Below are positions 20,834 to 38,365 of a stretch of DNA of 51,940 nt, piece by piece. Each line of letters begins with the position of its first letter. The first letter of the stretch is position 1. The DNA is from Escherichia phage MLP1: sequence record NC_079176; one strand, given 5' to 3'. The notes beneath the pieces are model-generated. The model saw only the letters and a program-made list of their open reading frames with translations, was not told where the DNA came from and ran no database searches. Position numbers and translations under genes: made by a program.

Positions 20834-21344
20834 GTATGAGGGGTTTGTTGAGAACACAAACCTGACTGAAAACCAGCAAGTGCTCAAGGATGAGCACAAG
20901 ATTCTCTTCGGATGTGATAAGAGTGGAACATGCTGGTATAAGATTCGCAAATCTTTAAAAGATGGTACGGCCAAAGTTGTCTACGAAAATGATGGCTCTA
21001 TCCGACACATTGACTTTGGTCCTGGTGACACTGTGGCCACACCGCTTGGTGGGAACATAGTTGAATTGGATGCGCTGCCAGAAGGTGTCGCAGAAGAAAT
21101 GCACTTCTGGAAGTTTGATGGTAAGAAGTTTGTACCTCATACCGAGAACCGCATGCTGTTCAACAAGTTCCGTCAGGGTAAAGTAATCTCCCGTTTATCA
21201 GAACAGATTGCTCTGCTTGATAGTGTGTTTGAATTGAAGATGCAAGAGAAGGGTGATGAAGAGGCTCTTCTTGATTTGAAGAAGAAGCGCATTCTTGTAT
21301 CTCGAATGGACTTAACTAAAACAATCGACTGGAAAGAATTCTAA
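20814..21344 (+). CDS. putative tail fibre assembly protein
   Basis: About 176-aa ORF immediately after the distal fibre gene; start ambiguous (ATG 20802 or 20814). Confidence 0.3.
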   Translation: MTVILCKYEGFVENTNLTENQQVLKDEHKILFGCDKSGTCWYKIRKSLKDGTAKVVYENDGSIRHIDFGPGDTVATPLGGNIVELDALPEGVAEEMHFWKFDGKKFVPHTENRMLFNKFRQGKVISRLSEQIALLDSVFELKMQEKGDEEALLDLKKKRILVSRMDLTKTIDWKEF

Positions 21345-21685
21345 TGGATAGACAAACTTTCCAAATGGTTTGGGAAGCAATGCACCAGTATGGAGTTCTT
21401 CATGGACTCCTAGCTGGATTGACTGCACTCATTCGTGGGGCGTACGAAAAGGAAGGCTTGCTGAAAGCTATTCTTGATGCCCTACTTTGTGTAGTCATTG
21501 GTACGTTTGTTTTCTCCCTACCTGGCTTCGTGGACATATTCAAAGATGAACCGCGCTATGCCACAATCGCTGCAATGGTGATTGGTTTGATTGGGGCTAA
21601 CCTAATCATTACCACAATTCGAGATTGCTTCACTGCTGCAATCAAACAACTCAACCCACTCAATTGGTTTAAGAAGGCCAAATAA
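21344..21685 (+). CDS. holin (three predicted transmembrane segments, lambda S-like layout)
   Basis: Hydrophobic stretches VLHGLLAGLTALI, LLCVVIGTFVFSL, ATIAAMVIGLIGANLIITTI; IRGAYEKEG...LDALLC resembles lambda S LRGRYNGG...IDATMC; directly upstream of a hydrolase. Confidence 0.6.
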   Translation: MDRQTFQMVWEAMHQYGVLHGLLAGLTALIRGAYEKEGLLKAILDALLCVVIGTFVFSLPGFVDIFKDEPRYATIAAMVIGLIGANLIITTIRDCFTAAIKQLNPLNWFKKAK

Positions 21686-21700
21686 TGCAAACAAGGAACT

Positions 21701-22261
21701 ATGATGCCCTCAGCACAAGTTCTTGCATTTCTGTTGGTGAGTCTGTTTCACGCAAATGTCCCAGCTTCGGCTGGGGCAGTGAACGCCACTATTACAGAAT
21801 TTGCAAGTCAATCCTATTTAAATGGAAGTCTGAAACTATCTTCTTCACAACGCAAAGAGCTAGAATGCTATACTAAAGTAATTTGGTTTGAAGCTCGTGG
21901 AGAAAGCAAACATGGAAAGATTCTGGTAGCTAATGTCGTCCGTAATCGAATCAAATTCGGGAAGCCATTCGCTAACACCGTTTGCGATGTAGTTTATCAA
22001 CGCAACCAGTTTGCTTGGACAAGAGAAGTAAAGAAGAAGAATGCTCAATGGAAGAACATAGTTAAAACAAATTGGAAGACTGAATCAAAACAGGTTTGGG
22101 ACGCCATGAATGTGGCAATTAGCTTCGCACTGTTGGATGCCCCAGATGTAACCGATGCCACTCACTTCTGCACAGCTACAGAGAAATGCAATTTCAAAAG
22201 GGTTGTTGGAAGAGGAACCTACGGTGGACACAAATTTTATAAGTATTTAGGAAATAAATAA
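21701..22261 (+). CDS. SleB-type cell wall hydrolase with N-terminal signal sequence
   Basis: WFEARGE...VANVVRNR...NQFAW matches the conserved core of the SleB/Hydrolase_2 family; N-terminus [24 protein letters not shown] is signal-like. Confidence 0.55.
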
Positions 22262-22263
22262 TA

Positions 22264-23382
22264 ATGGCTTACACTACCTTTTCACAAACCAAGAATAACC
22301 AACTATTAGAACCAATGTTCTTTGGTCAGAACGTCAACGTTGCTCGCTATGACCAACAGAAGTATGGCATATTCGAGAAGTTGATTGAGAAACAATTGTC
22401 ATTCTTCTGGCGACCGGAAGAGGTAGATGTTTCACAGGACCGTATTGATTATCAGAAGCTCCCACCAAATGAGCAGCACATTTTCACCAGTAATTTGCGC
22501 TATCAAATCCTTCTGGACTCCATTCAGGGACGTGGACCTAACACAGTTTTGCTACCAATCGTTAGCATTCCTGAGCTAGAAACTTGGATTGAAACTTGGT
22601 CTTTCTCTGAGACTATCCATTCACGTTCTTACACCCACATCATTCGTAATATTGTTACAGACCCAAGCATTATCTTTGATGAAATCGTAACTAACGAACA
22701 CATCAAAGCACGAGCAATTGGCATCTCCCAATATTATGACGAACTTCAACAACTCACTGCATTATGGCAGTTGTTCGGAGAAGGGAACCATGCTGGTCAT
22801 GAAATTAGTCTGCGAGAGTTGAAGAAGAAGCTCTATCTGTGCCTCATGTCCATCAATGCACTGGAAGCAATTCGATTCTATGTCAGCTTTGCTTGCTCAT
22901 TTGCCTTCGCTGAACGTAAGCTAATGGAAGGAAATGCCAAGATTATTCGACTGATTGCACGAGATGAAGCACTACATTTGACCGGAACTCAGCACATGTT
23001 GAATATTCTGGCGAGTGGTAAAGATGACCCAGAAATGGGCGAAATTGCTCAAGAATGTCGTGAAGAATGCCAGAAATTGTTCGAAGATGCTGCTCAACAG
23101 GAGAAAGATTGGGCTGATTATCTGTTCAAAGATGGCTCCATGATTGGCTTAAACAAGCAAATTCTGTGCGGATATGTGGAATATATTACGAATATTCGTA
23201 TGCAAGCGGTTGGATTAGATGCTCCATTCAAAGGTGCAACTAACCCGATTCCATGGATTAACGCATGGTTGAATTCGGATGCTGTACAGGTTGCTCCACA
23301 GGAAACGGAGATTAGTTCATACCTGGTCGGGCAAATTGACTCCGAAGTTGATACCAATGCGCTCAGTGGATTCGAGTTGTAA
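22264..23382 (+). CDS. nrdB: ribonucleotide reductase class Ia small (beta) subunit
   Basis: Near-colinear with E. coli NrdB from [11 protein letters not shown] to the C-terminal R1-binding tail; radical Tyr context RSYTHII and iron ligands ([16 protein letters not shown]) present. Confidence 0.9.
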
Positions 23383-23440
23383 CGATTAAATGGGAGAAGA
23401 GATTCGATGCGTTAGCGTCGTTTCTCTTTGAGCTAGAATA

Positions 23441-23468
23441 AAATAAGTAAGTTTTCAATATTACTTAT
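23441..23468 (+). other. perfect 9-bp-stem hairpin (AATAAGTAA/TTACTTATT)
   Basis: Read directly; 10-nt loop; lies in the gap between nrdB and the RNAP gene. Confidence 0.3.
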
Positions 23469-23537
23469 TCCCAATATTGCTACAATATTTAAAGTAGTAT
23501 TAGGAATGCGTAAAGTTCAAAACCAAGTGGTACATGG

Positions 23538-23591
23538 TCGGTCAACTGTATCTGGACATGGATTCGTTCACAATCGGTCAGCTGTATCTAG
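23538..23591 (+). repeat. direct repeat pair TCGGTCARCTGTATCTRG, spacing 36 bp
   Basis: Copies at 23538-23555 and 23574-23591; palindrome TGTTCGAACA at 23600-23609. Confidence 0.5.
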
Positions 23592-23678
23592 CCGGAATTT
23601 GTTCGAACAGTGGTCCGGCTATGTTATAAAAATTTTTATATAATTTTTTTTTTAATTTTAAATATTGTTACGGAATTA

Positions 23679-23730
23679 ATGAGACTCGAATTGTTTCAAT
23701 ATTAACGAGACTCAATCTGTGACAATATTA
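23679..23730 (+). repeat. tandem imperfect 26-bp direct repeat (about 20/26 identical)
   Basis: atgagactcgaattgtttcaatatta / acgagactcaatctgtgacaatatta, back to back. Confidence 0.5.
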
Positions 23731-23899
23731 TAATTTTATTTTTGGGCCAGCGGGGAGGGGGAAGTTGTGACATTATTATTTTAAAATTTTTATCTCCGAG
23801 GAGGGGAAGCCCAACGTCCTATCGGACTTAAATACGGTCCCTACCCCCAACTTTTTCCTGTAGCCTATCGGCTTTCAAACAACACCAAGTTAGGTAGTG

Positions 23900-23921
23900 G
23901 GTCAAGGTCAAGGTCAAAGTC
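23900..23921 (+). repeat. (GGTCAA)x3 tandem hexamer
   Basis: ggtcaaggtcaaggtcaaagtc read directly. Confidence 0.5.
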
Positions 23922-23955
23922 TCCGTGCTGTGCTAACAATGGCACAGGTTTGTGA

Positions 23956-23972
23956 TATTAGTTGGACGTGAA
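23956..23972 (+). promoter_or_regulatory. copy of recurrent 17-bp motif (tATTAGTTGGAcGTGAA), candidate phage promoter
   Basis: Member of an 8-copy family with consensus CATTAGTTGGATGTGAA, all in + orientation; 67 bp upstream of RNAP start. Confidence 0.4.
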
Positions 23973-24038
23973 TTGTGTAATGGCTACGCTATTATAATCC
24001 GTTTCATTCAAATCATACACAATCTTGGAGACTTACAA

Positions 24039-25979
24039 ATGACTACTATCACTACTCAAACTATCAAATCTGTTGTTCCTGCTATCACTGCTCTGGTATA
24101 CCGTGCCAAAGAGAAGCAGAACTACATGGTTCCACAGACTTGTGCTATTGCTGCCTTAGCCATATTCAAGATGATGACGTCTTTCACGCGTGATGACGTT
24201 ATTCCTGCTATCTCGATGGTTGAACTGGCTTCTGCTTCCATTGCTGATGCCAACCGTTACAACAACGACTTAAAGTCAATGCACTATGTTGACCCAGCTA
24301 TCAACCTCATTGGTTTGGCTAAACACTTCGGTTTCATCACCATGAACGAAGACAAATCGTTCCAGATGACTGATGCGTGGGTTGAACTGGTTACAACCAA
24401 AGATACCTCAGTTCCATTCACTGAGCGGGTAACAACTGAATCTCGTCGTAAGCCTTTCGTTAAGGGTGGCAAAGTTAAGCCATCCAAGACTCTGAAAGCT
24501 GCAATCGAATTCCTGCAAGATACTGAATATCACGTTGATGCAACAATGGTTAAGGTTATCTCTTCCATGTTAGAACAACGTACATTTGGTGGCTTACAGA
24601 TGCCAGAAGCAATCCAGACTGAACTCCATGTTTGGAACAATGCTGTAGCAATGGTTGGTCAGGACACTCTGTTCTCTGACTACTTTGCTGATAACCGTGG
24701 TCGTTTATATCACGTAGCATGTGCTGGTCCTAACCCACAATCATCTGACTTTGCTCGTTGCCTGTATTCCCACAATGTTGAGAACACTGTGAGCAAGTTT
24801 AATGCTGATGGTTCAACAACTCTGGCATACAACATGTTCATGCTTGAGCTGGAAGATATTGCTGGTGGAGACTGGACTTCTGCAAAACGTTTAACTTATG
24901 TTGCACAGAATCCTGCTGGTTCTTTGGCTCGTATGCTGAACATGCCTAAAGGTGAGCGTCCTTCCAAGCCATTCACTTATGTTCGTCTGGCTCTGGATTG
25001 GTTCAAGTTTGAGACTACAGGTGAGTGTGATTCTCGTGTAGGCTTTGGCTTAGATGCTAAATGTTCTGGTACTCAATACTTGGCATTCATTGCTGGTAAC
25101 ATGGAGATGGCTCGTGCAACAGGTCTGGTTGATTCTGAGACTAAAGCATCTGACCCATACCAGTTATCTCTTCGTGAACTGTTGAAGTTATTAGACCGTT
25201 CTTCAATGAAACCATCCGCTGAAATTATGGATGAATTCTTGAATCCGAAAGCTGGTCGTAAGTTTATCAAGACTCCATACATGGCTATTCAATATGGTGG
25301 TGGTAAAGCAGCATTAACTGGTTCTTCTGACTTCATTGCATACATGACAGAAGCTCTCCAGATTCCTATGGAGAAAGCTGATGCATTTGCTGAACTGTGT
25401 GTTGAAGCAATTCATAACGCATTGGGTGCTAAGATTAACATGTTCATTGAGAAAGCTGCTGATGCTGCATACAACCGTTGTGTTGAACTCAACAAAGAGT
25501 ACATCACATATAAGCACACTGATGGTCAAGTTGTAATGAAGCCTTGCTTCCCATCTCGTGATGTTTGTGATGCATTCAGCATTCGTGTTGACTCTCAAAC
25601 TCGTGTCATCTTTGGTCAGATTCAGGAAGAGAAACCTTGGACCATTCGTGAGTCCAATCCGACTAAAGAAGAATTCAAACGTACCTTCGTTGTTAACTAC
25701 ATTCAAGGTATTGACGCATTGGTTGCTCGTACTGTTGCAGTCAAAGCTAAAGAAGCTGGTCTTCGTGGCTTTACTTCAATTCACGACTGTTTCCGTTGCT
25801 GCTTAGCTGATGCTCCACTCATGATGGAAGTAATTCGTTCTGCTTATATTGAAATCTTTGTTAATAATAATCAGTTTGAATCTCTATCTAAGCAACTTGG
25901 TGGCATCAACATGTACCATGAGAACATCGTAACAGAAGAGCTTCTGATGAGCGAACACGCTTACTACTTCTGTCAATAA
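24039..25979 (+). CDS. single-subunit T7-type DNA-dependent RNA polymerase, compact form
   Basis: DAKCSGTQY (T7 motif A DGSCSGIQHF), RKFIKTPYMAIQYGGG (motif B), FTSIHDCF (motif C, T7 IHDSFG); ATG 24039 has GGAG ribosome-binding site; ORF track's upstream start at 23952 has none. Confidence 0.85.
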   Translation: MTTITTQTIKSVVPAITALVYRAKEKQNYMVPQTCAIAALAIFKMMTSFTRDDVIPAISMVELASASIADANRYNNDLKSMHYVDPAINLIGLAKHFGFITMNEDKSFQMTDAWVELVTTKDTSVPFTERVTTESRRKPFVKGGKVKPSKTLKAAIEFLQDTEYHVDATMVKVISSMLEQRTFGGLQMPEAIQTELHVWNNAVAMVGQDTLFSDYFADNRGRLYHVACAGPNPQSSDFARCLYSHNVENTVSKFNADGSTTLAYNMFMLELEDIAGGDWTSAKRLTYVAQNPAGSLARMLNMPKGERPSKPFTYVRLALDWFKFETTGECDSRVGFGLDAKCSGTQYLAFIAGNMEMARATGLVDSETKASDPYQLSLRELLKLLDRSSMKPSAEIMDEFLNPKAGRKFIKTPYMAIQYGGGKAALTGSSDFIAYMTEALQIPMEKADAFAELCVEAIHNALGAKINMFIEKAADAAYNRCVELNKEYITYKHTDGQVVMKPCFPSRDVCDAFSIRVDSQTRVIFGQIQEEKPWTIRESNPTKEEFKRTFVVNYIQGIDALVARTVAVKAKEAGLRGFTSIHDCFRCCLADAPLMMEVIRSAYIEIFVNNNQFESLSKQLGGINMYHENIVTEELLMSEHAYYFCQ

Positions 25980-26020
25980 CATTAATTGGTCAAGGATGAC
26001 CACAAACTTGGAGACTTAAA

Positions 26021-26119
26021 ATGAATACTCAACAAATCAAACAAATCGAAAATTGTTTCAATCCTCACCACACTTGCAGCATGATTGATTTATCTCGTCC
26101 TACAGTGGGGGGAGACTAA
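26021..26119 (+). CDS. small ORF (32 aa), hypothetical
   Basis: Initiation region CTTGGAGACTTAAAATG is near-identical to the RNAP one (CTTGGAGACTTACAAATG). Confidence 0.3.
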   Translation: MNTQQIKQIENCFNPHHTCSMIDLSRPTVGGD

Positions 26120-26227
26120 AGACTTCTTAGAATTGTTGTCAGAATATAAACAAGAGTCGCATGTATTATTGCACGCATTCTTGCATAATTCTGGATATTT
26201 CGATACAGAGATACCGTTCTGATATTT

Positions 26228-26250
26228 GGGAGCTTCGGCTCCCTTTTCTT
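26228..26250 (+). terminator. intrinsic terminator (GGGAGC-UUCG-GCUCCC then UUUUCUU)
   Basis: Perfect 6-bp GC stem, UUCG tetraloop, T-run; read directly. Confidence 0.55.
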
Positions 26251-26275
26251 GTTTCAACTAGTCTTAAGGTTGTAG

Positions 26276-26292
26276 CATTAGTTGCATGTGAA
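26276..26292 (+). promoter_or_regulatory. 17-bp motif copy CATTAGTTGcATGTGAA
   Basis: 24 bp upstream of ATG 26316. Confidence 0.4.
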
Positions 26293-26315
26293 TAACAAAC
26301 AATTTGGAGAATATC

Positions 26316-26480
26316 ATGTTCACAGTTCATTATCAAATAGTCGGCAAGTTTGAGAATTACGAAGAGTGCAATACATTAGCTGAAGCTCGTGCATTTGCTG
26401 CATCTTTAAAAGATACGGTATATGTTGATATTGTAGATGGTGATAAAGAGTATCCACTTGTAGCACCTGCATTACACTGA
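26316..26480 (+). CDS. small hypothetical protein (54 aa)
   Basis: GGAG ribosome-binding site 7 nt upstream; preceded by motif copy. Confidence 0.4.
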   Translation: MFTVHYQIVGKFENYEECNTLAEARAFAASLKDTVYVDIVDGDKEYPLVAPALH

Positions 26481-26531
26481 TTCCCAATATTCGAGCAATA
26501 TTACTGCATGTAGTATTGCTCCGATATTCGA

Positions 26532-26548
26532 CATTAGTTGGATGTGAA
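26532..26548 (+). promoter_or_regulatory. 17-bp motif copy CATTAGTTGGATGTGAA (consensus)
   Basis: Exact consensus. Confidence 0.4.
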
Positions 26549-27412: not shown

Positions 27413-27429
27413 AGACCAAATCTCTGTAA
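27413..27429 (+). promoter_or_regulatory. 17-bp motif copy CATTAGTTGcATGTGAA
   Basis: Read directly. Confidence 0.4.
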
Positions 27430-27950: not shown

Positions 27951-27951
27951 A

Positions 27952-28194: not shown

Positions 28195-28195
28195 C

Positions 28196-30107: not shown

Positions 30108-30158
30108 GGCGCGTTAAATTAACAAGGAGCATTCATTGAGTGTTCCTGATTAATTCAA

Positions 30159-30175
30159 CATTAGTTGGATGTGAG
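30159..30175 (+). promoter_or_regulatory. 17-bp motif copy CATTAGTTGGATGTGAg
   Basis: 75 bp upstream of the SSB-tail gene. Confidence 0.4.
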
Positions 30176-31699: not shown

Positions 31700-31709
31700 G
31701 GGGGGGGGG
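31700..31709 (+). repeat. poly-G tract (G10) in the Shine-Dalgarno position of the next gene
   Basis: Counted directly; 4 nt upstream of ATG 31714. Confidence 0.6.
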
Positions 31710-31713
31710 AATT

Positions 31714-31935: not shown

Positions 31936-31937
31936 TC

Positions 31938-32288
31938 ATGAAAACTTTATACATTGCACTAACAATTTTGTTTGGAGTATTCGCATTCAAATCAGAAGCA
32001 TCTGTTCGCAGCTTCCAGTGTGGCGGGTACAAAATGTCCGTTGAAACAATTACAATGAGCCAGCCGCTCATTGCAACAATTTCTTTGCACGAAGGTACTT
32101 GGATTGAGATTCCAGATAACGGAAACCCCAACCCAATGTCAACAGTGTTTTACAATACACAGAGCAGTAAGCTGGCCTTAGTTGGTGTTGACGCTGAGGA
32201 ACGTTTGGTGCTGCAGATTTACCGTGACATTGACTTCTTTCATGCCAAATTTCCATTGTTATCAACCTATTGTAAGGAAGTTAAATGA
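31938..32288 (+). CDS. secreted/periplasmic hypothetical protein
   Basis: N-terminal signal-like MKTLYIALTILFGVFAFKSEASV. Confidence 0.4.
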   Translation: MKTLYIALTILFGVFAFKSEASVRSFQCGGYKMSVETITMSQPLIATISLHEGTWIEIPDNGNPNPMSTVFYNTQSSKLALVGVDAEERLVLQIYRDIDFFHAKFPLLSTYCKEVK

Positions 32289-32518
32289 CGTCATCCGAAT
32301 TTACCATTGATGGGGTTCAATACCTGCTGGAATCCAATTGCGAGTATCGCCATTGGGCAGTAATTCACGACCGAGTTGTAAAATACTTGGAACGTGTGGG
32401 GAAGGAAACTGCTAAACCTATGTTGTTTGAGGCAACAGTTATTGGAACAACCTCAATCAATAAGGAGTTAGTATCCTTCAAATTAACCATTCACCCTAGT
32501 GGGAATAGCTTTCAATGA
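32285..32518 (+). CDS. hypothetical protein
   Basis: ATGA overlap. Confidence 0.35.
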   Translation: MTSSEFTIDGVQYLLESNCEYRHWAVIHDRVVKYLERVGKETAKPMLFEATVIGTTSINKELVSFKLTIHPSGNSFQ

Positions 32519-32790
32519 TTTCAATTGACCAAGTTCCAGTTGAGTTGAGTAAGGCAAAAGGTAAGTTGGACAATGCCAAATCCGACTTGTCGACCTTTGA
32601 TTTAAATGCTCCAGCCGATAAAGTTAAAGTTTTCATCGACTGTATTGACGGATGGGTGCTTATTGAGCATGGAGTCCTTCGAGCATTACTTGTTGATGAA
32701 GTTGCCAAGGCTCAGAAAGCATTTGATGAACTTGATAACCTCAACACACTGTTAAACAATACTTTAAACGATGCGTTAAAGGGTAAATAA
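32515..32790 (+). CDS. hypothetical protein
   Basis: ATGA overlap; helical and charged. Confidence 0.35.
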   Translation: MISIDQVPVELSKAKGKLDNAKSDLSTFDLNAPADKVKVFIDCIDGWVLIEHGVLRALLVDEVAKAQKAFDELDNLNTLLNNTLNDALKGK

Positions 32791-33185
32791 TGAATGTTAA
32801 GCTCGGTCAACGTTCTTTAGACCGACTTAAGGGAGTAAATCCTTCATTAGTTGCAGTTTTCAAACGGGCATGTGAAACCATGCCTTTTGATGTAACTGTT
32901 TTGGAAGGTTTACGCTCTTATGAACGTCAACAAGAACTGTTAAAGCAGGGTGCAACCAAAGTTTCTGTTAGCCGACACATGTCAGGCAACGCTTTGGACA
33001 TTGCACCATATCCAATTGACTGGAATGACCTTGAACGATTCCAAATTGTGGCTGAACACATGTTCAAAGCCGCAGAAGAGCTTGGAATTACTATTCGTTG
33101 GGGTGGAACATGGGAACGTTCATTCACTAAGCCAGTGAAATGGGCTAAATTCCTTGACGCACCTCATTTCGAACTTCCAGCATAA
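32790..33185 (+). CDS. peptidase M15 endolysin (L-alanyl-D-glutamate peptidase, T5-type)
   Basis: SRHMSGNALDIAPYPIDWNDLERF and GITIRWGGTW align with T5 endolysin GDAIDFAPYINGKIDWNDLEAF and GIKLRFGADW. Confidence 0.7.
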   Translation: MNVKLGQRSLDRLKGVNPSLVAVFKRACETMPFDVTVLEGLRSYERQQELLKQGATKVSVSRHMSGNALDIAPYPIDWNDLERFQIVAEHMFKAAEELGITIRWGGTWERSFTKPVKWAKFLDAPHFELPA

Positions 33186-33205
33186 CTTCATCAATGGAGC
33201 ATCCG

Positions 33206-33484
33206 ATGGAATATCAGGAAATACCGAAAGAATTAGAGCGTATGCAGGAGCGTACGTCTCGTGCAGAGGCAGAACTCCACCAACATTTGTCAAATCATGT
33301 GCAAGATTCCCGTAGTCTGAGACACGAAATTGAGGTTGGCAGATGCTGCTATCTAGTAACATATGAAGAGAAGACCGCCATCCTGGACATACTAGTAAAG
33401 GGCGGGAAAGGGCGAATCGAACAGCTCAAAATCCTTAATATGGAACTTCAAGGTATGTGGGAGAAACTCAATGCAAAACGATAA
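33206..33484 (+). CDS. hypothetical protein
   Basis: ATG 33206 has GGAG ribosome-binding site (track start 33194 lacks one). Confidence 0.35.
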   Translation: MEYQEIPKELERMQERTSRAEAELHQHLSNHVQDSRSLRHEIEVGRCCYLVTYEEKTAILDILVKGGKGRIEQLKILNMELQGMWEKLNAKR

Positions 33485-34019
33485 CATTACTAAAGCAGTG
33501 GAACAACTTAAGTCCTGGCGTAGAGATGAAACATTATTGGTTCGTTTCTACACAGGCGAAACTAATTCTGAATTTGAAGATGCGTGGATTGATGGTCTGG
33601 CATGGCGGCTCTATGACTTCAACATGTCAGAATATTTGCACGAAGAATATGGCATCGAGTACCCAGAAACAGGGACTTATGACATTCTCGAATCAAACGA
33701 AGAAGATGTTACAGAAATTTGCTTTGTTGATGGACTGTTCAGCATTCGCAGATATGACAAGTTCAACGAACTGCTTACTGACACTGACTTGGATATAATT
33801 CTTGCTGCATTCCGTAGCGATGAAATTGACATTTTCACTGTTGACGACTTGAACGACATGTTCATCACACGTTGCGACTCAATTGCAGACTATTTCAAGC
33901 AAAGTGAAGCACTGGATATTCCAGACCGCCTTGCACCATACATTGATTGGGAAGCAATTGTGAAAGACTTCGGCAGTGACTACATCTTCTCCGAAGGAGT
34001 ATTGTTCTTAAATGTGTGA
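33471..34019 (+). CDS. ardA: ArdA-like antirestriction protein (acidic DNA mimic), tentative
   Basis: Strongly acidic 182-aa protein; C-terminal YIDWEAIVKDFGSDYIFSEGVLF resembles the ArdA C-terminal block as recalled from memory. Confidence 0.45.
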   Translation: MQNDNITKAVEQLKSWRRDETLLVRFYTGETNSEFEDAWIDGLAWRLYDFNMSEYLHEEYGIEYPETGTYDILESNEEDVTEICFVDGLFSIRRYDKFNELLTDTDLDIILAAFRSDEIDIFTVDDLNDMFITRCDSIADYFKQSEALDIPDRLAPYIDWEAIVKDFGSDYIFSEGVLFLNV

Positions 34020-34248
34020 TTTAAATATTAACTCGGTCAAGCCAGAAGATATTCTCTTCCACCAGCCACGCGGCCACTACTATCGAATCCTGTTTGCTAC
34101 AAAGATTAAAACTCACTGCGGTCAGTGGGTAGATGGTTTTGCTTACCAGGAAGTTAAGAAGTATGGAAATCATACTTTCTTTGGTGTTGATTCGATAATT
34201 TATTCAAGACCAAAGGAACTGTTTGACTCAGATTGGAAAACACTATAG
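34012..34248 (+). CDS. hypothetical protein
   Basis: 78-aa ORF overlapping upstream stop. Confidence 0.35.
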   Translation: MCDLNINSVKPEDILFHQPRGHYYRILFATKIKTHCGQWVDGFAYQEVKKYGNHTFFGVDSIIYSRPKELFDSDWKTL

Positions 34249-34318
34249 TTCCAGGCGGGTTTCTTCGAAGTGCCAAGCGGGTTTTGTACTCGCATTGGCC
34301 TTCGGCTTTAGTCTGAAA

Positions 34319-34334
34319 CATTAGTGGGATTTGA
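34319..34334 (+). promoter_or_regulatory. diverged 17-bp motif copy (CATTAGTgGGATtTGA)
   Basis: Shares TCTGAAACATTAGT upstream context with the 34463 copy. Confidence 0.3.
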
Positions 34335-34462
34335 TTCTGACCTCTTAGGGAAGAAAGGCATTATACACCTATCGCCAAATGGGTGTCAAGAACTTTCTTC
34401 ATTTATTTTAATTTATTCTTATTATTATTCTTTTTGTTTGGAATATTGGAATAATTCTGAAA

Positions 34463-34479
34463 CATTAGTTGGAATTGAA
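34463..34479 (+). promoter_or_regulatory. 17-bp motif copy CATTAGTTGGAaTTGAA
   Basis: Lies in an 860-bp ORF-poor gap, about 630 nt upstream of the next gene. Confidence 0.35.
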
Positions 34480-35112
34480 GAAACAACATCATGTAAGCAA
34501 ATTGACTTCGTGTAGAAATCTACACTGGATTACAGGTTCGATGCCTGTGGGAAGTTAGTTTGCTTTCAGATGGAATGTTTCCATCAAATACACTTATCTT
34601 TTAACATAGGCCAAAGGGCCAGAATACTTCTTCGCAGAAGCTATCCACTTGTTATAGGTCAATGTATTGGGATGAATTGGTACTGAATAAGCAAGCTGTT
34701 AGGGCTGAATAATTAGAGGGTTATGCCTCATGCTTATGTTAGTCATTCGAAAATAGGTTTGTGCCACAAGCCGCTGGTGCTCCGAGAAAGTCGGACAAAC
34801 AGGGCTTAGAGTGGCATATTCCACACAAAACCGAGCCACCAGCTACGCCAACGCTGGGATTTGGGTGAATGTATTGGGGGAGGATTATAAAGCCTCTGTG
34901 GACTGTATGTGAATCCTAAGCACCAGTTGCCGAAGGGCTACAGGACGCACCCTAACGGGAATAATCCTCCACCAATGCAGTTATCCAGAATTGACACAAA
35001 CGGTAGGCAGCGGCCCGATTTTCGGCCTTCCTGCGCTACTCTGTGGCCTGTTTCATGGCCAAAAGATGAGAAGAGAAGTCACAAACACTGAATCGAAAAT
35101 TGGAGAGTTCCT

Positions 35113-35433
35113 ATGATTCGCAAGCATTCTGCTAAAGTTTTGACATTAAGAAATGTATTAACGTCCGTTCTAAGTGGGGAAGGTGAGGAAGAAACAATCC
35201 ACTTCGTCCTTGTTGGTGGACTTTGGTACTACAACGGCACCAACGACTTTACAGTAGGAATTTCGGAGAAAGATGGGTTCTGGAAGCACACTTTCAAAGA
35301 CATACTCGAAAGCAGTGCTAAATACACACTTGGGGAAGTTAAGAAATACTTCTACCTCGGGCCAAACAAGTCCATGCAAATTGCAACTCGCGAGTGGACA
35401 ACTAACCAAGAAGTTTACGGAGTCCCATTTTGA
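35113..35433 (+). CDS. hypothetical protein
   Basis: GGAG ribosome-binding site. Confidence 0.4.
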   Translation: MIRKHSAKVLTLRNVLTSVLSGEGEEETIHFVLVGGLWYYNGTNDFTVGISEKDGFWKHTFKDILESSAKYTLGEVKKYFYLGPNKSMQIATREWTTNQEVYGVPF

Positions 35434-35720
35434 ACTTACAAGACAAATCCAAAGAAGAGTTGATTGAGATTATCCAGAAAGAGCACGAACTCGCTGGCAT
35501 CACAATTAACTTTGAACTCCAGGCAATGCAAGCTGTTGCTTTGGGTCATGGCCTAATGGCTACACTCATTCATGCCAAGAATGTGTTAGGCGTTAACGAC
35601 GAAAAATACCAAATTCTGGAGAAAGCTGCGCAAGAGCGGATTTCGCAGTGCTTGGTTACATTAGTTGATTTGGGAATCGACGCAGAAACTGCGAACAAAC
35701 GTATCCTACAAGGCCACTAA
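35430..35720 (+). CDS. hypothetical protein (TTG start overlapping upstream stop)
   Basis: tTGA overlap, same coupling pattern as at 4401. Confidence 0.3.
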   Translation: MNLQDKSKEELIEIIQKEHELAGITINFELQAMQAVALGHGLMATLIHAKNVLGVNDEKYQILEKAAQERISQCLVTLVDLGIDAETANKRILQGH

Positions 35721-35721
35721 A

Positions 35722-36396
35722 ATGTCTTATCATGATGATGACAAAGAGATTGCACTATCAACGTGCAAGCAATGGCTCAATGATAATGATGCCGTCTATC
35801 TTGCCAAGGAAGATGTTATCATTATGTGGGTCCATTTTAATCCAGAATCGAAGCGCGGTGAGTGGCAACGTTACAAGATGAAAGAGGCTTGTCGCATAAT
35901 TAAAGCCACACGCGCTGGCTTCTCTGCTATGAAATATATCAAGCCAGAGATGCTGATGCTTGCTGCACAGGAAGAAGAACGTGCATATAAGCAAGCTGTT
36001 AAATCCCGTTCAACTGTTCCTCCAGAGTTCTTTAATTTGGAGCGCGCTGGTCACTTCAACAATTTAGAAATGTTGACACTGTGCCTGTTGCAAGAATTAG
36101 TTGGAAGAGGACAAAACATTGAAGCTGTTTGCCTTGGGGAACTCATGAAAGAGTTGTTCTTGACAAAGGGCTTTGCTGTACCAAACCGAACTTTACGCTG
36201 GAAATTGTTGCGAGCAGTCGCGCAAGAAGCTGGTGTAGTTGTTCGTGACAGAACCAACCGACTTACCATTACGGGAGTTGGGCGTTTTGTAGCAATCCAG
36301 ATTGAGGGTTATGACGAATCAATCATCACTGAACTCACTGTCGCTGAGACAAAGGATTTGGTAATCAAAACAATCGAACGATTCAATATGTATTGA
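35722..36396 (+). CDS. hypothetical protein (224 aa)
   Basis: ATG directly after upstream stop; track start 35665 overlaps upstream gene. Confidence 0.4.
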   Translation: MSYHDDDKEIALSTCKQWLNDNDAVYLAKEDVIIMWVHFNPESKRGEWQRYKMKEACRIIKATRAGFSAMKYIKPEMLMLAAQEEERAYKQAVKSRSTVPPEFFNLERAGHFNNLEMLTLCLLQELVGRGQNIEAVCLGELMKELFLTKGFAVPNRTLRWKLLRAVAQEAGVVVRDRTNRLTITGVGRFVAIQIEGYDESIITELTVAETKDLVIKTIERFNMY

Positions 36397-36426
36397 GTCG
36401 TTTGTTAAATCAGAGCAGTCCTGACA

Positions 36427-36443
36427 CATTAATTGGATGTGAA
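36427..36443 (+). promoter_or_regulatory. 17-bp motif copy CATTAaTTGGATGTGAA
   Basis: 78 bp upstream of ATG 36521. Confidence 0.4.
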
Positions 36444-36520
36444 AAGAGAAAGGCTCTTTAATTTTATCTACAGTCACGTCACCGTGGCGTGCAAAACTAT
36501 TTAATATAAGGTATATACAA

Positions 36521-36859
36521 ATGGCTAAGATTGTAACCGTAACTCAGTACGAAGCTAACGATGGTTCCCTGTTCCTGAGCGAAGCTGAGTGTAACGCACA
36601 CGATTTTAAACTGGAAAACGGCGCTAAAATTGATGCTGCTGTTGAAGCGTTCGCAAACACCAACAAACTGATTGACCGTTCTCGCTCAATGCAGACCAAT
36701 ACCGCTGCTGCATTCCTGGCATTCTATCTGCCGTGGGTTGAAGCCGGTTGTCCGGAAGTTGAACGTGTTGCGTTCGACACCGTGAAAGAAGTTAAGGTCG
36801 AAGAAGAAGCTGCTGTTGCAGTAGCAGAAGCTGCTGTTGAAGAAGCTCCGGTATTCTAA
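36521..36859 (+). CDS. abundant-looking small protein with acidic C-terminal tail ending in Phe
   Basis: Codon choice like highly expressed E. coli genes (CTG, CGT, GAA, ACC); C-terminus VEEEAAVAVAEAAVEEAPVF; motif plus AAGGT ribosome-binding site upstream. Confidence 0.5.
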   Translation: MAKIVTVTQYEANDGSLFLSEAECNAHDFKLENGAKIDAAVEAFANTNKLIDRSRSMQTNTAAAFLAFYLPWVEAGCPEVERVAFDTVKEVKVEEEAAVAVAEAAVEEAPVF

Positions 36860-37724
36860 ATCGATCTGGCGTGCACTGGAAGTTGTCCGGTGCTGCCTTG
36901 AACCCATTCCCAAGAGTGAGTGGGCTTCAATGAGCATTCTTGTGATTAGAGTTGGGAGGTAGGCCGATGCCCAATCTCGTGGCCCCGACAAGAGTGTTCA
37001 TTGAAGTAGTTTTCTGAGTCTTACGACGGGCCTAAACTGCCTGAAGTTATTGCGACTGTTTTATTCATTTAAAATAAATGCAAACGATTCTGAAATGCGA
37101 GTTGCAGCTTAATTAAATTTAAGTTCTCTCCGTGGTCTTCCAATCCCATGTAACCAAATTTGGCGCATTGTGGCTTCGAGATGTGATTAATAAATCGGAG
37201 CAATAATTAATTTGTATTCTGCGATGTAATGCAGACTTAAGTCCCTCAGTGCGCGTAGGGATGTGACAGAGTACAAACTTAATTATGCAGTTGGATATTT
37301 CCGGAGGACGGACGAGCACACTGGAATGTCTTCAATTGGTTTAGTGTGAGAAGCTATGCCAATGTGGAACGTAACTCCTTGAGGAAGTGCTCCTTTGGAT
37401 TTCCCTCCACACAGGAATCTCAAGCCTGTGGCAGCGACTTCGAAGCTGCACTGTATAACCTAATTCGCCCTAAAGTGAATTGCCCTGAGTATGGAAATAA
37501 ACTGCTCTAACCAATGGTTTCCACAACGGTGGAATAAATTAGGTTGCCTGTTGGTACTTGGGTTCAACACCTGCTTGCACTCGCAAAGTAGTGCCTCGTA
37601 CCTGAGATGAAGTGAGTCGGGACCATCAATCCACGGCAGGCCGAAGATACCAAACAGGCGGCTCACTGATTCTACAAGCCTCGCAGTTCGGGAAAACCTG
37701 CGTTACCAAAACCCACCAAATTTT

Positions 37725-37817
37725 GGACGAGTAGCTCAGAAGGTCTGCTCCAGAGCTTAGTCAGGTAGAGCAATCTGTTCGACAGATGTGTCGTTGGTTC
37801 GAACCCAACCTCGTCCA
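37725..37817 (+). tRNA. tRNA-like gene with insertion; isotype undetermined
   Basis: Perfect 7-bp acceptor pairing GGACGAG/CTCGTCC, canonical T-arm GTTGG-TTCGAAC-CCAAC, UA at positions 8-9, D-arm TAGCTCAG...GGTAGAGC split by about 22 nt; candidate anticodon stem ATCTG/CAGAT encloses only 5 nt. Confidence 0.45.
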
Positions 37818-37843
37818 CCCTTAACAACAAACATGGAGTCCTC

Positions 37844-37984
37844 ATGGATTTTGATGCACTTGATAACTTAGACTTCGGTGCTGCCGAAGAGGCAATTGAA
37901 GAACTTAAGAAGAAGCAGGACGAAGAAGCAATCGTTCCTGGTGCTGGTGATAACGACTGCTCAAGTGGTGCGTGTGCCATCTAA
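37844..37984 (+). CDS. small acidic peptide (46 aa), hypothetical
   Basis: GGAG 5 nt upstream of ATG; below ORF-track cutoff. Confidence 0.3.
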   Translation: MDFDALDNLDFGAAEEAIEELKKKQDEEAIVPGAGDNDCSSGACAI

Positions 37985-37992
37985 GGTGATTC

Positions 37993-38229
37993 ATGCAACA
38001 GCTTAAGGCAATATTTCTTGGCGTCTTGACTGCATTGGGAATTCTATTTGCAGTGTTCCTCAAAGGCAGAAGCTCAGGCAAAGCCGAGGAGCGTCAGGAA
38101 GCCAAAGAGAAGCAATTCGATTCGTTAAAAGAATCTATCGAGATTAAATCGCATGTTCAGAAAGAAGTGTCTAGCAGTTCTGATAGCAATGTCGATAGTG
38201 AGTTGCTCTCAAAGTGGGTTCGTAAGTGA
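37993..38229 (+). CDS. i-spanin (Rz-like) candidate
   Basis: N-terminal transmembrane segment AIFLGVLTALGILFAVFL then charged helical region; overlapped by a lipoprotein ORF. Confidence 0.5.
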   Translation: MQQLKAIFLGVLTALGILFAVFLKGRSSGKAEERQEAKEKQFDSLKESIEIKSHVQKEVSSSSDSNVDSELLSKWVRK

Positions 38230-38365
38230 TTACTGCTTGATTGCACAACCAATCTATTTGGATGTTGCAGAAGTGAAAGTTTTGTCGCGCGAAACCAAAA
38301 CCCAGATTTTAGTCCACAATGAAACGTGGGCACAAAAGTGTTCTAACTTACCCGACAGTGAGTGA
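38153..38365 (+). CDS. o-spanin (Rz1-like outer-membrane lipoprotein) candidate
   Basis: Signal peptide with lipobox-like IVSC; starts inside the i-spanin gene in another frame. Confidence 0.5.
   Translation: MFRKKCLAVLIAMSIVSCSQSGFVSDYCLIAQPIYLDVAEVKVLSRETKTQILVHNETWAQKCSNLPDSE

What the first reader, a model, noticed from the sequence alone, without database searches (positions are those of the whole stretch)
21344..38365. Lysis functions split across three loci, with two different wall hydrolases
Holin plus SleB-type hydrolase lie at 21.3-22.3 kb, a T5-type M15 peptidase at 32.8 kb inside the early region, and the overlapping spanin pair at 38.0-38.4 kb. Two unrelated hydrolases, one with a signal sequence, suggest one may act at entry or be regulated separately.
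Basis: partly seen in the sequence, partly recalled or inferred. Interest (0 to 1): 0.4.

Follow-up and report, generated by a model that had tools for sequence, protein, structure and literature searches.

The report
Ordinary split lysis genes, two hydrolases
This phage really does scatter its cell-bursting genes over three places and carries two different wall-cutting enzymes, but its published relatives have the same layout and it resembles phage T5, so it is ordinary, not new.

Summary
They hold a lambda-S-type holin (21344-21685), a SleB-type Hydrolase_2 enzyme with an N-terminal export signal (21701-22261), a T5-type M15 L-Ala-D-Glu peptidase with no signal (32790-33185), and an overlapping i-/o-spanin pair (37993-38229, 38153-38365).

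The window is a near-complete Carltongylesvirus genome (Chaseviridae), about 93% identical to Escherichia virus TH33. The same genes at the same places are already annotated in phiEcoM-GJ1, ST32, EcoM1, 4HA13 and Y2.

Both hydrolases keep their catalytic residues and are under purifying selection. They lie in different predicted transcription units and would reach the wall by different routes: Sec export for one, holin holes for the other. So "regulated separately" is supported.

"Acts at entry" is not supported. The tape-measure-like tail protein already carries an SLT transglycosylase domain. A Sec-exported enzyme cannot be packaged into virions. Neither hydrolase appears in the 4HA13 virion proteome list.

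The pairing recurs elsewhere. Nefertitivirinae have Hydrolase_2 next to a Peptidase_M15_3 gene in one cassette. T5 and Certrevirus CB7 have the same three-locus split. How the two enzymes divide the work has not been tested.

In passing I found an unannotated, conserved structured RNA with a tmRNA-like tag frame upstream of the spanins.

The parts
21344..21685 (+). Holin of the lambda S family (class I type), 113 aa
   Evidence: Pfam Phage_holin_3_1, 37.4 bits (cut-off 23.8), and phrog_126, E 2.8e-19. Two strong TMDs at aa 39-57 and 74-92, plus a weaker hydrophobic stretch at about aa 16-33 that I read by eye. Only 62% identical to GJ1/EcoM1 but 69% to Erwinia Y2.
21701..22261 (+). SleB-type (Hydrolase_2) cell-wall hydrolase, 186 aa. 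The predicted Sec signal peptide is aa 1-24 (nt 21701-21772), with cleavage after A-S-A. The catalytic domain is about aa 67-180.
   Evidence: Pfam Hydrolase_2, 58.3 bits. The model's fold matches SleB 4FET/4F55. E64 is invariant. C56 and C95 are invariant in 39 homologues and are both lost together in pAh6.2TG. The hydrophobic core has a median of 11 residues in the 39 homologues. dN/dS is 0.19-0.22.
32790..33185 (+). T5-type M15 (Peptidase_M15_4) L-alanyl-D-glutamate peptidase, 131 aa, with no signal sequence
   Evidence: Pfam and PHROG matches. PDB sequence hits to EndoT5 2MXZ, 8Q2G and ChiX 5OPZ. The Zn ligands and the catalytic Asp align with T5 lys. dN/dS is 0.07-0.15. No hydrophobic segment was found.
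37993..38229 (+). i-spanin, 78 aa, with an N-terminal TMD at aa 4-22
   Evidence: phrog_1026 'Rz-like spanin', E 4e-20. TMD. 91-92% identical to GJ1 gp31 and the EcoM1 spanin.
38153..38365 (+). o-spanin, 70 aa, with a lipoprotein signal and lipobox I-V-S-C (Cys18). It starts inside the i-spanin gene in the +1 frame.
   Evidence: phrog_1275, E 2.3e-18. The sequence was read. A 97% identical ORF is present but unannotated in GJ1 and EcoM1. phiEcoM-GJ1 is listed among two-component spanins in PMC6139136.
11036..11266 (+). SLT lytic-transglycosylase domain (aa 1066-1142) of the 1231-aa tape-measure-like virion protein (7841-11536). This is the likely entry lysin.
Evidence: Pfam SLT, 29.3 bits (cut-off 21.3).
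30158..30174 (+). Phage promoter motif ACATTAGTTGGATGTGA heading the unit that holds SSB, the M15 peptidase and the anti-restriction gene. The next copies are at 34318 and 34462.
   Evidence: 9 matches, all on the + strand, against 0.27 expected. PWM scan. These correspond to the 'putative phage promoters' annotated in NC_010106.
36426..36442 (+). Phage promoter motif heading the unit that runs through the non-coding RNA region, the tRNA-like gene and the spanins
23405..23420 (+). Terminator-like hairpin after RNR-beta. It closes the late block that ends holin, then SleB-type enzyme, then RNR-beta.

Best explanation
This is the standard lysis equipment of the Cleopatravirinae (Chaseviridae): a holin-timed system with two endolysins plus a two-component spanin. 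It is spread along a one-directional, T7-style transcription programme.

Proposed sequence of events:
1. Entry. The SLT domain of the tape-measure-like virion protein cuts the wall locally. This is inferred from the domain.
2. Middle phase. Phage-RNAP promoters drive the unit carrying SSB, the M15 peptidase and the anti-restriction gene. The M15 L-Ala-D-Glu peptidase has no export signal, so it accumulates harmlessly in the cytoplasm, as EndoT5 does. The spanins, made from the next unit, insert into the inner and outer membranes.
3. Late phase. At the far end of the late block the S-type holin accumulates in the inner membrane. The SleB-type enzyme, probably a lytic transglycosylase, is exported by Sec. 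Its signal peptide is probably cleaved after A22-S23-A24, and it probably forms a C56-C95 disulfide in the periplasm.
4. Trigger. Holin triggering collapses the membrane potential and releases the M15 peptidase. Glycan strands and stem peptides are then cut together, and the spanins fuse the two membranes.

What is shown: gene identities, intact catalytic motifs, purifying selection, signal-peptide-like N-termini, conserved synteny, promoter motif positions, and recurrence of the enzyme pair in other phage families.

What is inferred: timing, export, signal cleavage, the disulfide, and which enzyme contributes most to lysis.
For: Identities and motifs.

Purifying selection on both enzymes: dN/dS is 0.19-0.22 for the SleB-type gene and 0.07-0.15 for M15.

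Conserved synteny: the same genes in the same order occur in GJ1, EcoM1, 4HA13 and Y2.

Sister subfamily: a Hydrolase_2 gene and a Peptidase_M15_3 gene sit next to each other. In pAh6.2TG and VPs20 they lie immediately downstream of small membrane-protein genes at the end of the late block (Spp001 was only checked for the adjacent pair).

Parallel in T5:
- holin T5.041 and M15 lys T5.040 lie together;
- the spanins T5.044/045 lie 2 kb away;
- the SleB-like gene T5.083 lies 22 kb away, and its product has a textbook signal peptide, MKAALLLVAALTFSFSSQA|SH.

The same three-locus split is described for Klebsiella T5-like phage KPP105 (PMC12136712) and for Certrevirus CB7, where the SleB-like protein has a signal peptide and was toxic when expressed in E. 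coli (PMC7344957).

Signal peptide rather than SAR domain:
- a conserved P-A-S-x-G follows the core.

Promoter and terminator layout.

Phage Tiny, of the same genus, shows no rounding of cells at 20-40 min, only lysis at 60 min (PMC13340011). This fits M15 being sequestered until holin triggering.
Against: - I found no expression data, deletion mutant or enzymology for any Chaseviridae lysis gene in the searches I ran, so timing and the division of labour are inferred.
- The n-region of the window's signal peptide (MMPSAQ) has no positive charge, which is unusual for an efficient Sec signal.
- Other authors call the orthologue a 'SAR endolysin' (PMC6989608; DE15 annotation).
- If the secreted enzyme were freely active it should lyse cells before the holin fires, so some restraint must exist, and none was identified.
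- The M15 enzymes of the two subfamilies belong to different Pfam families (M15_4 and M15_3) and tblastn does not link them. The family-wide pairing could therefore be convergence rather than inheritance.
Confidence: 0.6

Rival explanations
1. The SleB-type enzyme next to the holin is the only true endolysin, whether secreted or a SAR-type membrane-tethered form. The M15 peptidase, expressed in the middle phase, would have a non-lytic job. It could be a T7 gp3.5-like regulator of the phage RNA polymerase, or a cytoplasmic hydrolase of L-Ala-D-Glu-containing wall precursors that shuts down host wall synthesis.
For: - Gene position: the M15 gene lies among host-takeover and replication genes in a phage with a T7-type RNAP. 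In T7 the amidase gene 3.5 also sits in the class II region, away from the holin and spanins (established knowledge).
- PMC6989608 describes only 'holin-SAR endolysin' as the lysis module of the group.
- CB7's SleB-like protein was toxic on its own in E. coli.
Against: - The M15 protein keeps every catalytic and Zn-binding residue of EndoT5, a bona fide endolysin.
- T5 lys is likewise expressed from the early region and still serves lysis (established knowledge).
- T7 lysozyme has a different fold (Amidase_2).
- No evidence of RNAP binding can be drawn from sequence.
- In Nefertitivirinae an M15-clan peptidase sits inside the terminal lysis cassette.
Confidence: 0.2
2. The two enzymes are redundant alternatives. 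Either one suffices for lysis, and carrying both protects against host or physiological variation in the wall, such as O-acetylation, altered cross-linking or stationary-phase murein. This would widen host range.
For: - Close relatives of this phage are recorded on Escherichia, Yersinia and Shigella (a 'Staphylococcus' host label also appears).
- Phages that carry a Hydrolase_2 enzyme pair it with different second enzymes: M15_4, M15_3, or T4-type lysozyme in Phapecoctavirus.
Against: Both genes are kept under purifying selection in every Cleopatravirinae genome examined, and none was seen with only one of them. Persistent co-retention argues for non-identical roles. No experiment was found.
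Confidence: 0.25
3. One reading: one of the two hydrolases is a virion-associated enzyme that opens the wall at DNA entry.
For: Two unrelated hydrolases are present, and one of them (M15) is expressed apart from the lysis cassette. No direct evidence was found.
Against: - The tape-measure-like virion protein already has an SLT domain (GJ1 gp62 note).
- The SleB-type enzyme has an export signal and so leaves the cytoplasm, where virions assemble.
- Neither enzyme appears among the 15 proteins with at least 50% coverage in CsCl-purified 4HA13 virions, although contaminating SSB does.
- Neither gene lies in the structural module.
Confidence: 0.05

Closest known systems
Lysis genes of phiEcoM-GJ1 (gp73 holin, gp74 and gp21 'endolysins', gp31 spanin) and of ST32, EcoM1, 4HA13 and Erwinia phage Y2
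   Same: Same genes, same order and same three loci. The M15 enzyme is 97% identical to GJ1 gp21, the SleB-type enzyme is 76% identical to gp74, and the spanins are 91-97% identical.
   Different: The holin is unusually divergent: 62% identical to GJ1 but 69% to Y2. The o-spanin ORF is not annotated in GJ1 or EcoM1. The signal peptide of the window's clade has no basic residue.
Phage T5 lysis genes: holin T5.041 with EndoT5 lys T5.040, spanins T5.044/045, and the SleB-like T5.083
   Same: The same two enzyme families are present: M15_4 at about 37-50% identity and Hydrolase_2 at about 35-42% identity to T5-like phages. The SleB-like protein is secreted, the lysis genes are also in three loci, and the M15 enzyme lacks a signal.
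   Different: The partnership is reversed. In T5 the holin sits next to the M15 enzyme and the SleB-like gene is remote. Here the holin sits next to the SleB-type enzyme and M15 is remote. The T5 holin belongs to a different family, with a single TMD and 218 aa.
Nefertitivirinae (Aeromonas pAh6.2TG, Vibrio VPs20, Shewanella Spp001) terminal lysis cassette
   Same: A Hydrolase_2 enzyme with an N-terminal hydrophobic signal and the conserved Cys pair (except in pAh6.2TG), plus an M15-clan metallopeptidase, at the end of the late block just before the RNAP gene.
   Different: The two enzymes are adjacent rather than split. The peptidase is Peptidase_M15_3, not M15_4, and is not detectably homologous by tblastn. 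The membrane proteins of the cassette are different.
Certrevirus CB7 / Vequintavirinae lysis genes (PMC7344957)
   Same: A SleB-like hydrolase with a signal peptide next to a small candidate holin, a T5-type M15 peptidase elsewhere in the genome, and the spanin pair at a third locus.
   Different: This is an unrelated large myovirus. The candidate holin is class II (65 aa), and only some members of the genus carry the M15 enzyme.
Phage T7 lysis genes (3.5 amidase, 17.5 holin, 18.5/18.7 spanins); from established knowledge, not tested here
   Same: A single-subunit RNAP phage with one-directional transcription, whose wall hydrolase is made in the middle class far from the holin and spanins.
   Different: T7 has one hydrolase of a different fold, which also inhibits the RNAP. 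Its spanins are late genes near the holin.
Secreted (signal-peptide) endolysins such as Lys44 of Oenococcus phage fOg44, and SAR endolysins such as P1 Lyz; from memory
   Same: The endolysin is exported by the Sec system before the holin fires, and the holin serves to activate rather than to release it.
   Different: The N-terminus here looks like a short cleavable signal, not a 20-residue Gly/Ala-rich SAR anchor. A second, cytoplasmic endolysin is also present.

Membership tests
SleB/CwlJ-type cell-wall hydrolase (Pfam Hydrolase_2) | Profile match above the curated cut-off | tested here: met
   58.3 bits against 27, aa 67-180 covering profile positions 1-100 of 100
SleB/CwlJ-type cell-wall hydrolase (Pfam Hydrolase_2) | Catalytic glutamate in the E-[AS]-R-G-E motif | tested here: met
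   E64-A-R-G-E68. E64, G67 and E68 are invariant in 39 homologues, and the motif aligns with YGESRGE of B. cereus SleB 4F55.
SleB/CwlJ-type cell-wall hydrolase (Pfam Hydrolase_2) | Fold of the SleB catalytic domain | tested here: met
   AlphaFold model with pLDDT 88.1. Foldseek gives 4FET_A and 4F55 as the top hits, with probability 1.00 and target-normalised TM 0.70-0.74. The next hit has E greater than 2.
SleB/CwlJ-type cell-wall hydrolase (Pfam Hydrolase_2) | Lytic transglycosylase activity on peptidoglycan | not testable with these tools
   Needs muropeptide analysis of digested sacculi.
EndoT5-type M15 L-alanyl-D-glutamate peptidase (Peptidase_M15_4) | Profile and sequence match to characterised members | tested here: met
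   Pfam 36.8 bits against 25. phrog_465, E 2.6e-55. EndoT5 2MXZ, E 8.5e-20; 8Q2G, E 4.2e-24. The GJ1 orthologue is aligned with EndoT5 in PMC10487532.
EndoT5-type M15 L-alanyl-D-glutamate peptidase (Peptidase_M15_4) | Zn ligands H-x6-D and C-terminal H, plus the catalytic Asp (D-x-x-H) | tested here: met
   SRHMSGNALD and DAPHFE align with T5 SKHITGDAID and DGGHVE.
EndoT5-type M15 L-alanyl-D-glutamate peptidase (Peptidase_M15_4) | Cytoplasmic, holin-dependent (no signal or TMD) | tested here: met
   No hydrophobic segment in the 131 aa. Holin dependence itself cannot be tested here.
Lambda S-type class I holin | Profile match; three TMDs; dual-start motif | tested here: inconclusive
   Pfam Phage_holin_3_1, 37.4 bits against 23.8. 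Two strong TMDs and one weaker hydrophobic stretch read by eye. Met1 and Met8 with Arg3 between them could give a holin/antiholin pair, but this is not shown.
Two-component spanin, overlapped architecture | i-spanin with an N-terminal TMD; o-spanin with a lipobox Cys; o-spanin gene starting inside the i-spanin gene in another frame | tested here: met
   TMD at aa 4-22. Lipobox I-V-S-C18 after an R-K-K n-region. A 77-nt overlap in the +1 frame. PHROG E values of 4e-20 and 2e-18.
SAR (signal-anchor-release) endolysin | N-terminal TMD of about 18-22 residues, weakly hydrophobic and Gly/Ala/Ser-rich, with no signal-peptidase site | tested here: not met
   The core is 10 residues (80% V/L/I/F/M/W) in the window, with a median of 11 in 39 homologues. 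A conserved P-A-S-[AV]-G follows it. Y2 has MRKFFLLILLLMAVPASA|G. No SignalP-type predictor was available, so cleavage is inferred.
Virion-associated (entry) peptidoglycan hydrolase | Encoded in or fused to structural genes; present in purified virions | tested here: not met
   Neither gene is in the structural module. Neither protein is in 4HA13 Table S2. The SLT domain of the tape-measure-like protein does fit this role.

The most novel reading that the evidence does not exclude
The secreted SleB-type transglycosylase and the cytoplasmic stem-peptide peptidase could be obligate, sequential partners rather than redundant enzymes. On this reading the SleB-type enzyme waits latent in the periplasm. 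Bacillus SleB acts only on cortex glycan that has lost its peptide stems, and the phage enzyme might likewise become effective only once the holin releases the M15 peptidase and the stems are trimmed.

This would explain three things:
- why a Hydrolase_2 enzyme is accompanied by an M15-clan peptidase in Cleopatravirinae, Nefertitivirinae, T5-like phages and some Certrevirus;
- why T5 can carry its SleB-like gene in the early region without premature lysis;
- why both genes are retained everywhere.
Probability: 0.15. Interest if true: 0.55.

Novelty: already known. Interest (0 to 1): 0.22.

Why it matters
As a genome feature it matters little. The layout is the family norm and is already annotated.

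The open part is functional. At least three unrelated groups of Gram-negative phages combine a Sec-exported SleB-type enzyme with a signal-less second endolysin. In the papers I could search, nobody has tested what restrains the exported enzyme or how the two divide the work. An answer would bear on how lysis timing is kept tight when an endolysin bypasses the holin, and on choosing enzyme pairs for antibacterial use.

The by-product may deserve more attention than the finding itself. It is an unannotated, covariation-supported structured RNA carrying a tmRNA-type tag frame, in a virulent coliphage family.

Tried and rejected
- SAR endolysin reading (used by PMC6989608 and the DE15 annotation). 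Rejected as less likely, because the hydrophobic core is short and strongly hydrophobic and an A-x-A site is conserved.
- Entry-enzyme reading. Rejected.
- Pantoea phage PA1 endolysin paper (PMC11538084). Despite its 'Chaseviridae' label it concerns a 217-aa lysozyme-like enzyme related to FelixO1-type phages, so it is irrelevant.
- The original phiEcoM-GJ1 paper (PMC2223254) is not held. I read no RNA-seq or expression-timing data for any Chaseviridae and ran no search specifically for it. The only Chaseviridae virion proteome I read was 4HA13's, and the ST32 paper has none.
- T7 gp3.5 analogy for the M15 enzyme. Kept only as a low-probability rival, since nothing in the sequence supports RNAP binding.
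- The Cys56-Cys95 distance in the model could not be measured, because coordinates are not exposed. The disulfide rests on co-conservation and co-loss only.
- For the tmRNA-like element:
  - ARAGORN at default thresholds finds nothing;
  - ARAGORN at -ps80 calls a permuted tmRNA with the right tag, but that threshold gives about 13 false calls per shuffled genome, so I discarded it as evidence;
  - Rfam hits are far below the gathering scores.
- The full overlap between the 691 records with Hydrolase_2 hits and the 1325 records with M15_4 hits could not be computed, because only 60 rows are listed per search.

Full report
WHAT THE WINDOW IS

The 51,940-base window is a near-complete genome of a phiEcoM-GJ1-like myovirus (Chaseviridae, Cleopatravirinae, Carltongylesvirus). 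The 18-kb stretch named in the finding is 93% identical over 92% of its length to Escherichia viruses TH33 and TH28. It is 87-90% identical to Bp10, EcoM1 and phiEcoM-GJ1.

All substantial ORFs lie on the + strand. The order along the window is:
- structural genes, 461-21344;
- holin, SleB-type hydrolase and RNR-beta, 21344-23382;
- a T7-type RNA polymerase, about 24039-25979;
- small early/middle genes, 27.7-37 kb;
- a long non-coding stretch with a tRNA-like gene;
- the spanins;
- replication genes and the large terminase subunit, 39.5-51.1 kb.

In relatives with mapped ends (4HA13, Mangalitsa, Myduc), the physical genome starts just upstream of the RNAP gene. The holin and SleB-type genes are therefore at the right end of the physical genome.

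CHECKING THE OBSERVATION

The 113-aa product of 21344-21685 matches Pfam Phage_holin_3_1 (lambda S family) above its cut-off, and also phrog_126. It has two strong TMDs and a weaker hydrophobic stretch near the N-terminus that I read by eye.

The 186-aa product of 21701-22261 matches Pfam Hydrolase_2 at 58 bits. A confident AlphaFold model (pLDDT 88) has the SleB catalytic domains 4FET and 4F55 as its only real structural matches. The catalytic glutamate motif E64-A-R-G-E68 is conserved (E64, G67 and E68 invariant) in 39 homologues.

The 131-aa product of 32790-33185 matches Peptidase_M15_4 and phrog_465, and the solved EndoT5, 8Q2G and ChiX structures. It keeps the H-x6-D and D-x-x-H zinc and catalytic motifs. 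It has no hydrophobic segment.

The ORFs 37993-38229 and 38153-38365 match the two 'Rz-like spanin' PHROGs. The first has an N-terminal TMD. The second has a lipoprotein signal ending I-V-S-C, and it starts 77 nt before the end of the first, in the +1 frame.

IS EITHER ENZYME DECAYED?

No. Nei-Gojobori dN/dS against GJ1, EcoM1, 4HA13 and Y2 is 0.19-0.22 for the SleB-type gene and 0.07-0.15 for the M15 gene. Expression was not measured.

THE SIGNAL SEQUENCE

The N-terminus [24 protein letters not shown]|GAV has a 10-residue, strongly hydrophobic core followed by Pro and an A-S-A site.

Across 39 homologues the sequence of this region varies, but its pattern does not. The core has a median of 11 residues, followed by P-A-S-[AV]-G or a similar run of small residues. 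Erwinia phage Y2 has the textbook form MRKFFLLILLLMAVPASA|G. The T5 homologue T5.083 has MKAALLLVAALTFSFSSQA|SH.

This is the anatomy of a cleavable Sec signal peptide. It does not look like a SAR anchor of about 20 Gly/Ala-rich residues, although two sources label the orthologue a SAR endolysin.

Two cysteines, C56 and C95, are invariant in the 39 homologues. They are present in T5.083, VPs20 and Spp001. Both are absent together in pAh6.2TG, and both are absent from Bacillus SleB. This fits a periplasmic disulfide, but that is an inference.

One oddity is that the window's clade has no basic residue in the n-region of the signal.

TRANSCRIPTION CONTEXT

A 17-nt motif, ACATTAGTTGGATGTGA, occurs nine times, always on the + strand. 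The copies are at 23955, 26275, 26531, 27393, 30158, 34318, 34462, 36426 and, more weakly, 44023. Only 0.27 matches are expected by chance. A PWM scan adds weak copies at 49036, just before the terminase gene, and at 11572, after the tape-measure gene. These coincide with the 'putative phage promoters' annotated in NC_010106.

- The M15 gene lies in the unit that starts at 30158, together with SSB and an ArdA-like anti-restriction gene.
- The spanins lie downstream of the 36426 copy.
- The holin and the SleB-type gene are the second- and third-to-last genes of the late block. They are followed by RNR-beta and a terminator-like hairpin at 23405.

Separate regulation of the two hydrolases is therefore well supported by anatomy, though not measured.

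THE ENTRY HYPOTHESIS

This hypothesis is disfavoured, for four reasons.
- The 1231-aa tape-measure-like protein (7841-11536) carries an SLT transglycosylase domain at aa 1066-1142. The GJ1 record describes its orthologue as a probable T4 gp5 analogue.
- A Sec-exported protein cannot be packaged into virions in the cytoplasm.
- In the LC-MS/MS list for CsCl-purified 4HA13 virions, neither the M15 enzyme (YP_009884078) nor an endolysin appears, although SSB does. That list holds only proteins with at least 50% coverage, so this evidence is weak.
- Cells infected by phage Tiny, of the same genus, keep their shape at 20 and 40 min and lyse at 60 min.

COMPARATIVE PICTURE

This is the most informative part of the analysis.

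Within Cleopatravirinae the three-locus layout is conserved in GJ1, EcoM1, 4HA13 and Y2, down to about 44-59% protein identity in Y2.

In the sister subfamily Nefertitivirinae, a Hydrolase_2 protein and a Peptidase_M15_3 protein are encoded side by side at the end of the late block. In Aeromonas pAh6.2TG and Vibrio VPs20 they lie right after two small membrane-protein genes; Shewanella Spp001 was checked only for the adjacent pair. So the pairing of a SleB-type enzyme with an M15-clan peptidase is family-wide, and the split is specific to one subfamily. However, the peptidases belong to different Pfam families, and tblastn does not connect them. Replacement or convergence therefore cannot be excluded.

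Outside the family, the nearest homologues of both enzymes are in T5-like phages. T5 itself has the mirror-image arrangement:
- holin T5.041 and M15 lys T5.040 lie together;
- the spanins lie 2 kb away;
- the secreted SleB-like gene T5.083 lies 22 kb away, behind its own promoter.

A T5-like Klebsiella phage paper lists the same three loci. The Certrevirus CB7 paper describes a signal-peptide SleB-like enzyme next to a candidate holin, a T5-type peptidase elsewhere and the spanins at a third site. It mentions, as data not shown, that the SleB-like protein was toxic in E. coli. Phapecoctavirus pairs Hydrolase_2 with a T4-type lysozyme. From established knowledge, T7 also separates its wall hydrolase (gene 3.5) from its holin and spanins. 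Scattered lysis genes and a second wall hydrolase are thus common in virulent coliphages.

MOST LIKELY MECHANISM

I propose a holin-timed system with two endolysins.
- The M15 peptidase builds up in the cytoplasm from the middle phase and needs the holin's holes to reach the wall.
- The SleB-type enzyme is made last and crosses the membrane by Sec.
- The spanins, already in place, finish the outer membrane.

What keeps the exported enzyme quiet until triggering is unknown. Candidates are:
- late and limited synthesis;
- dependence on membrane depolarisation, as reported for secreted and SAR endolysins (from memory);
- the conserved stretch of about 40 residues between the signal and the catalytic domain;
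- a need for peptide-trimmed glycan produced by the M15 enzyme. This last is the novel reading, to which I give about 15%.

The rivals are that M15 has a non-lytic role, that the two enzymes are simply redundant, or that one is an entry enzyme. Each is listed with its evidence.

VERDICT ON THE FINDING

The feature is already annotated in published relatives and paralleled in T5, so novelty is 'already known' and interest is low.

BY-PRODUCT: A tmRNA-LIKE STRUCTURED RNA

The 860-nt non-coding stretch upstream of the spanins (36860-37720) is about 94-100% identical between the window, GJ1 and EcoM1, although the flanking genes differ far more. It contains the frame GCA AAC GAT TCT GAA ATG CGA GTT GCA GCT TAA, which reads ANDSEMRVAA*. 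The E. coli tmRNA tag is ANDENYALAA (from memory).

- The pattern occurs once in the window and in none of 100 shuffles.
- It occurs once at the syntenic site in EcoM1, 4HA13, GJ1 and Y2.
- It occurs in ten Chaseviridae-sized IMG/VR contigs.
- All differences within the E. coli group are synonymous third-position changes. The Erwinia/Pantoea group has ANDNEMRAAA.

Upstream, every lineage examined except GJ1 (whose 3' arm has a C-to-U change keeping a G.U pair) keeps a hairpin CCCAUUC-loop-GAGUGGG, whose third pair is G.U and whose loop ranges from 7 to 43 nt. In the Erwinia group the 5' arm is followed by CUUCUGGAUGAUUCGAAU, which resembles the 5' end of tmRNA. This is the order expected of a circularly permuted tmRNA gene.

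Downstream, two helices show compensatory changes. Eight pairs have changes on both sides, a count reached by 1 of 500 shuffles. 96.7% of cells are paired, against at most 61.5% when the partner columns are slid.

Against a bona fide tmRNA:
- I saw no canonical T arm;
- the CCA end is not conserved;
- ARAGORN at default thresholds and Rfam at gathering scores find nothing;
- the weak Rfam hits (E 0.04-0.06) and ARAGORN's relaxed call are not evidence on their own;
- blastn against E. coli ssrA finds nothing.

I leave it as a real, unannotated structured RNA with a tmRNA-type tag frame and unresolved function.

Noticed in passing
window 36870-37260 (tag frame 37080-37112; hairpin 36903-36924): An unannotated, highly conserved structured RNA carries a tmRNA-like tag frame, ANDSEMRVAA* (ANDNEMRAAA in the Erwinia/Pantoea relatives).

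- It is present once, at the syntenic site, in every Cleopatravirinae genome checked and in 10 IMG/VR contigs.
- Codon differences within the E. coli group are all synonymous.
- Upstream there is a conserved hairpin, CCCAUUC-variable loop-GAGUGGG, with G.U as the third pair, in the order expected of a permuted tmRNA gene.
- Downstream, helices show compensatory changes (8 pairs).
- It is not detected by ARAGORN or Rfam at normal thresholds, I saw no clear T arm, and its function is open.
   Followed up: partly
window 37724-37815: A tRNA-Arg(UCG)-like gene with an insertion of about 22 nt between the acceptor stem and the D arm.

- ARAGORN at default settings misses it.
- Rfam tRNA scores 25.6 bits, below the gathering score of 29.
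- With introns allowed, ARAGORN calls it tRNA-Thr.
- In GJ1, ARAGORN calls the orthologue tRNA-Leu, while the record says 'tRNA-Arg, may contain an intron'.
   Followed up: partly
window 7841-11536 (aa 460-592): The 1231-aa tape-measure-like virion protein carries a YqaJ-like recombinase/exonuclease domain (Pfam PF09588, 43 bits) in its middle, in addition to the C-terminal SLT domain. This is an odd domain for a tail protein.
   Followed up: no
window 38366-39215: About 850 nt after the spanins have no convincing + strand ORF. A similar gap exists in EcoM1, GJ1 and 4HA13. Only meaningless weak Rfam hits were found. It could be more structured RNA or a replication origin.
   Followed up: no
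window 31938-32288: A 116-aa protein in the same unit as the M15 peptidase has a clear signal peptide (MKTLYIALTILFGVFAFKSEA|SV). It is the orthologue of GJ1 gp18, and its function is unknown. It is a secreted middle-phase protein, possibly for superinfection exclusion or envelope modification.
   Followed up: no
window 21344-21685 versus flanks: Mosaicism at the holin. The holin is 62% identical to GJ1 and EcoM1 but 69% to Erwinia phage Y2. The adjacent RNR-beta is 98% identical to GJ1 and the SleB-type enzyme is 76% identical. Synonymous sites in the holin are saturated.
   Followed up: partly
window 37844-37984: A 46-aa, very acidic ORF (MDFDALDNLDFGAAEEAIEELKKKQDEEAIVPGAGDNDCSSGACAI) ends 9 nt before the i-spanin start. 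It is 98% conserved in GJ1 and EcoM1 and has no family match. It may belong to the spanin unit.
   Followed up: no
window 23955, 26275, 26531, 27393, 30158, 34318, 34462, 36426 (weak: 44023, 49036, 11572): The phage-specific promoter motif ACATTAGTTGGATGTGA occurs on the + strand only, with 9 copies against 0.27 expected. Strong copies are confined to the early/middle region. The late block has only degenerate copies.
   Followed up: yes
search results for the window's close relatives: One close relative (91% nucleotide identity over this region, 99% RNAP identity) is deposited as 'Staphylococcus phage Pel53' with host Staphylococcus hyicus. That host is implausible for a phage with Gram-negative spanins and an E. 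coli-type genome, so the host label is probably wrong.
   Followed up: no
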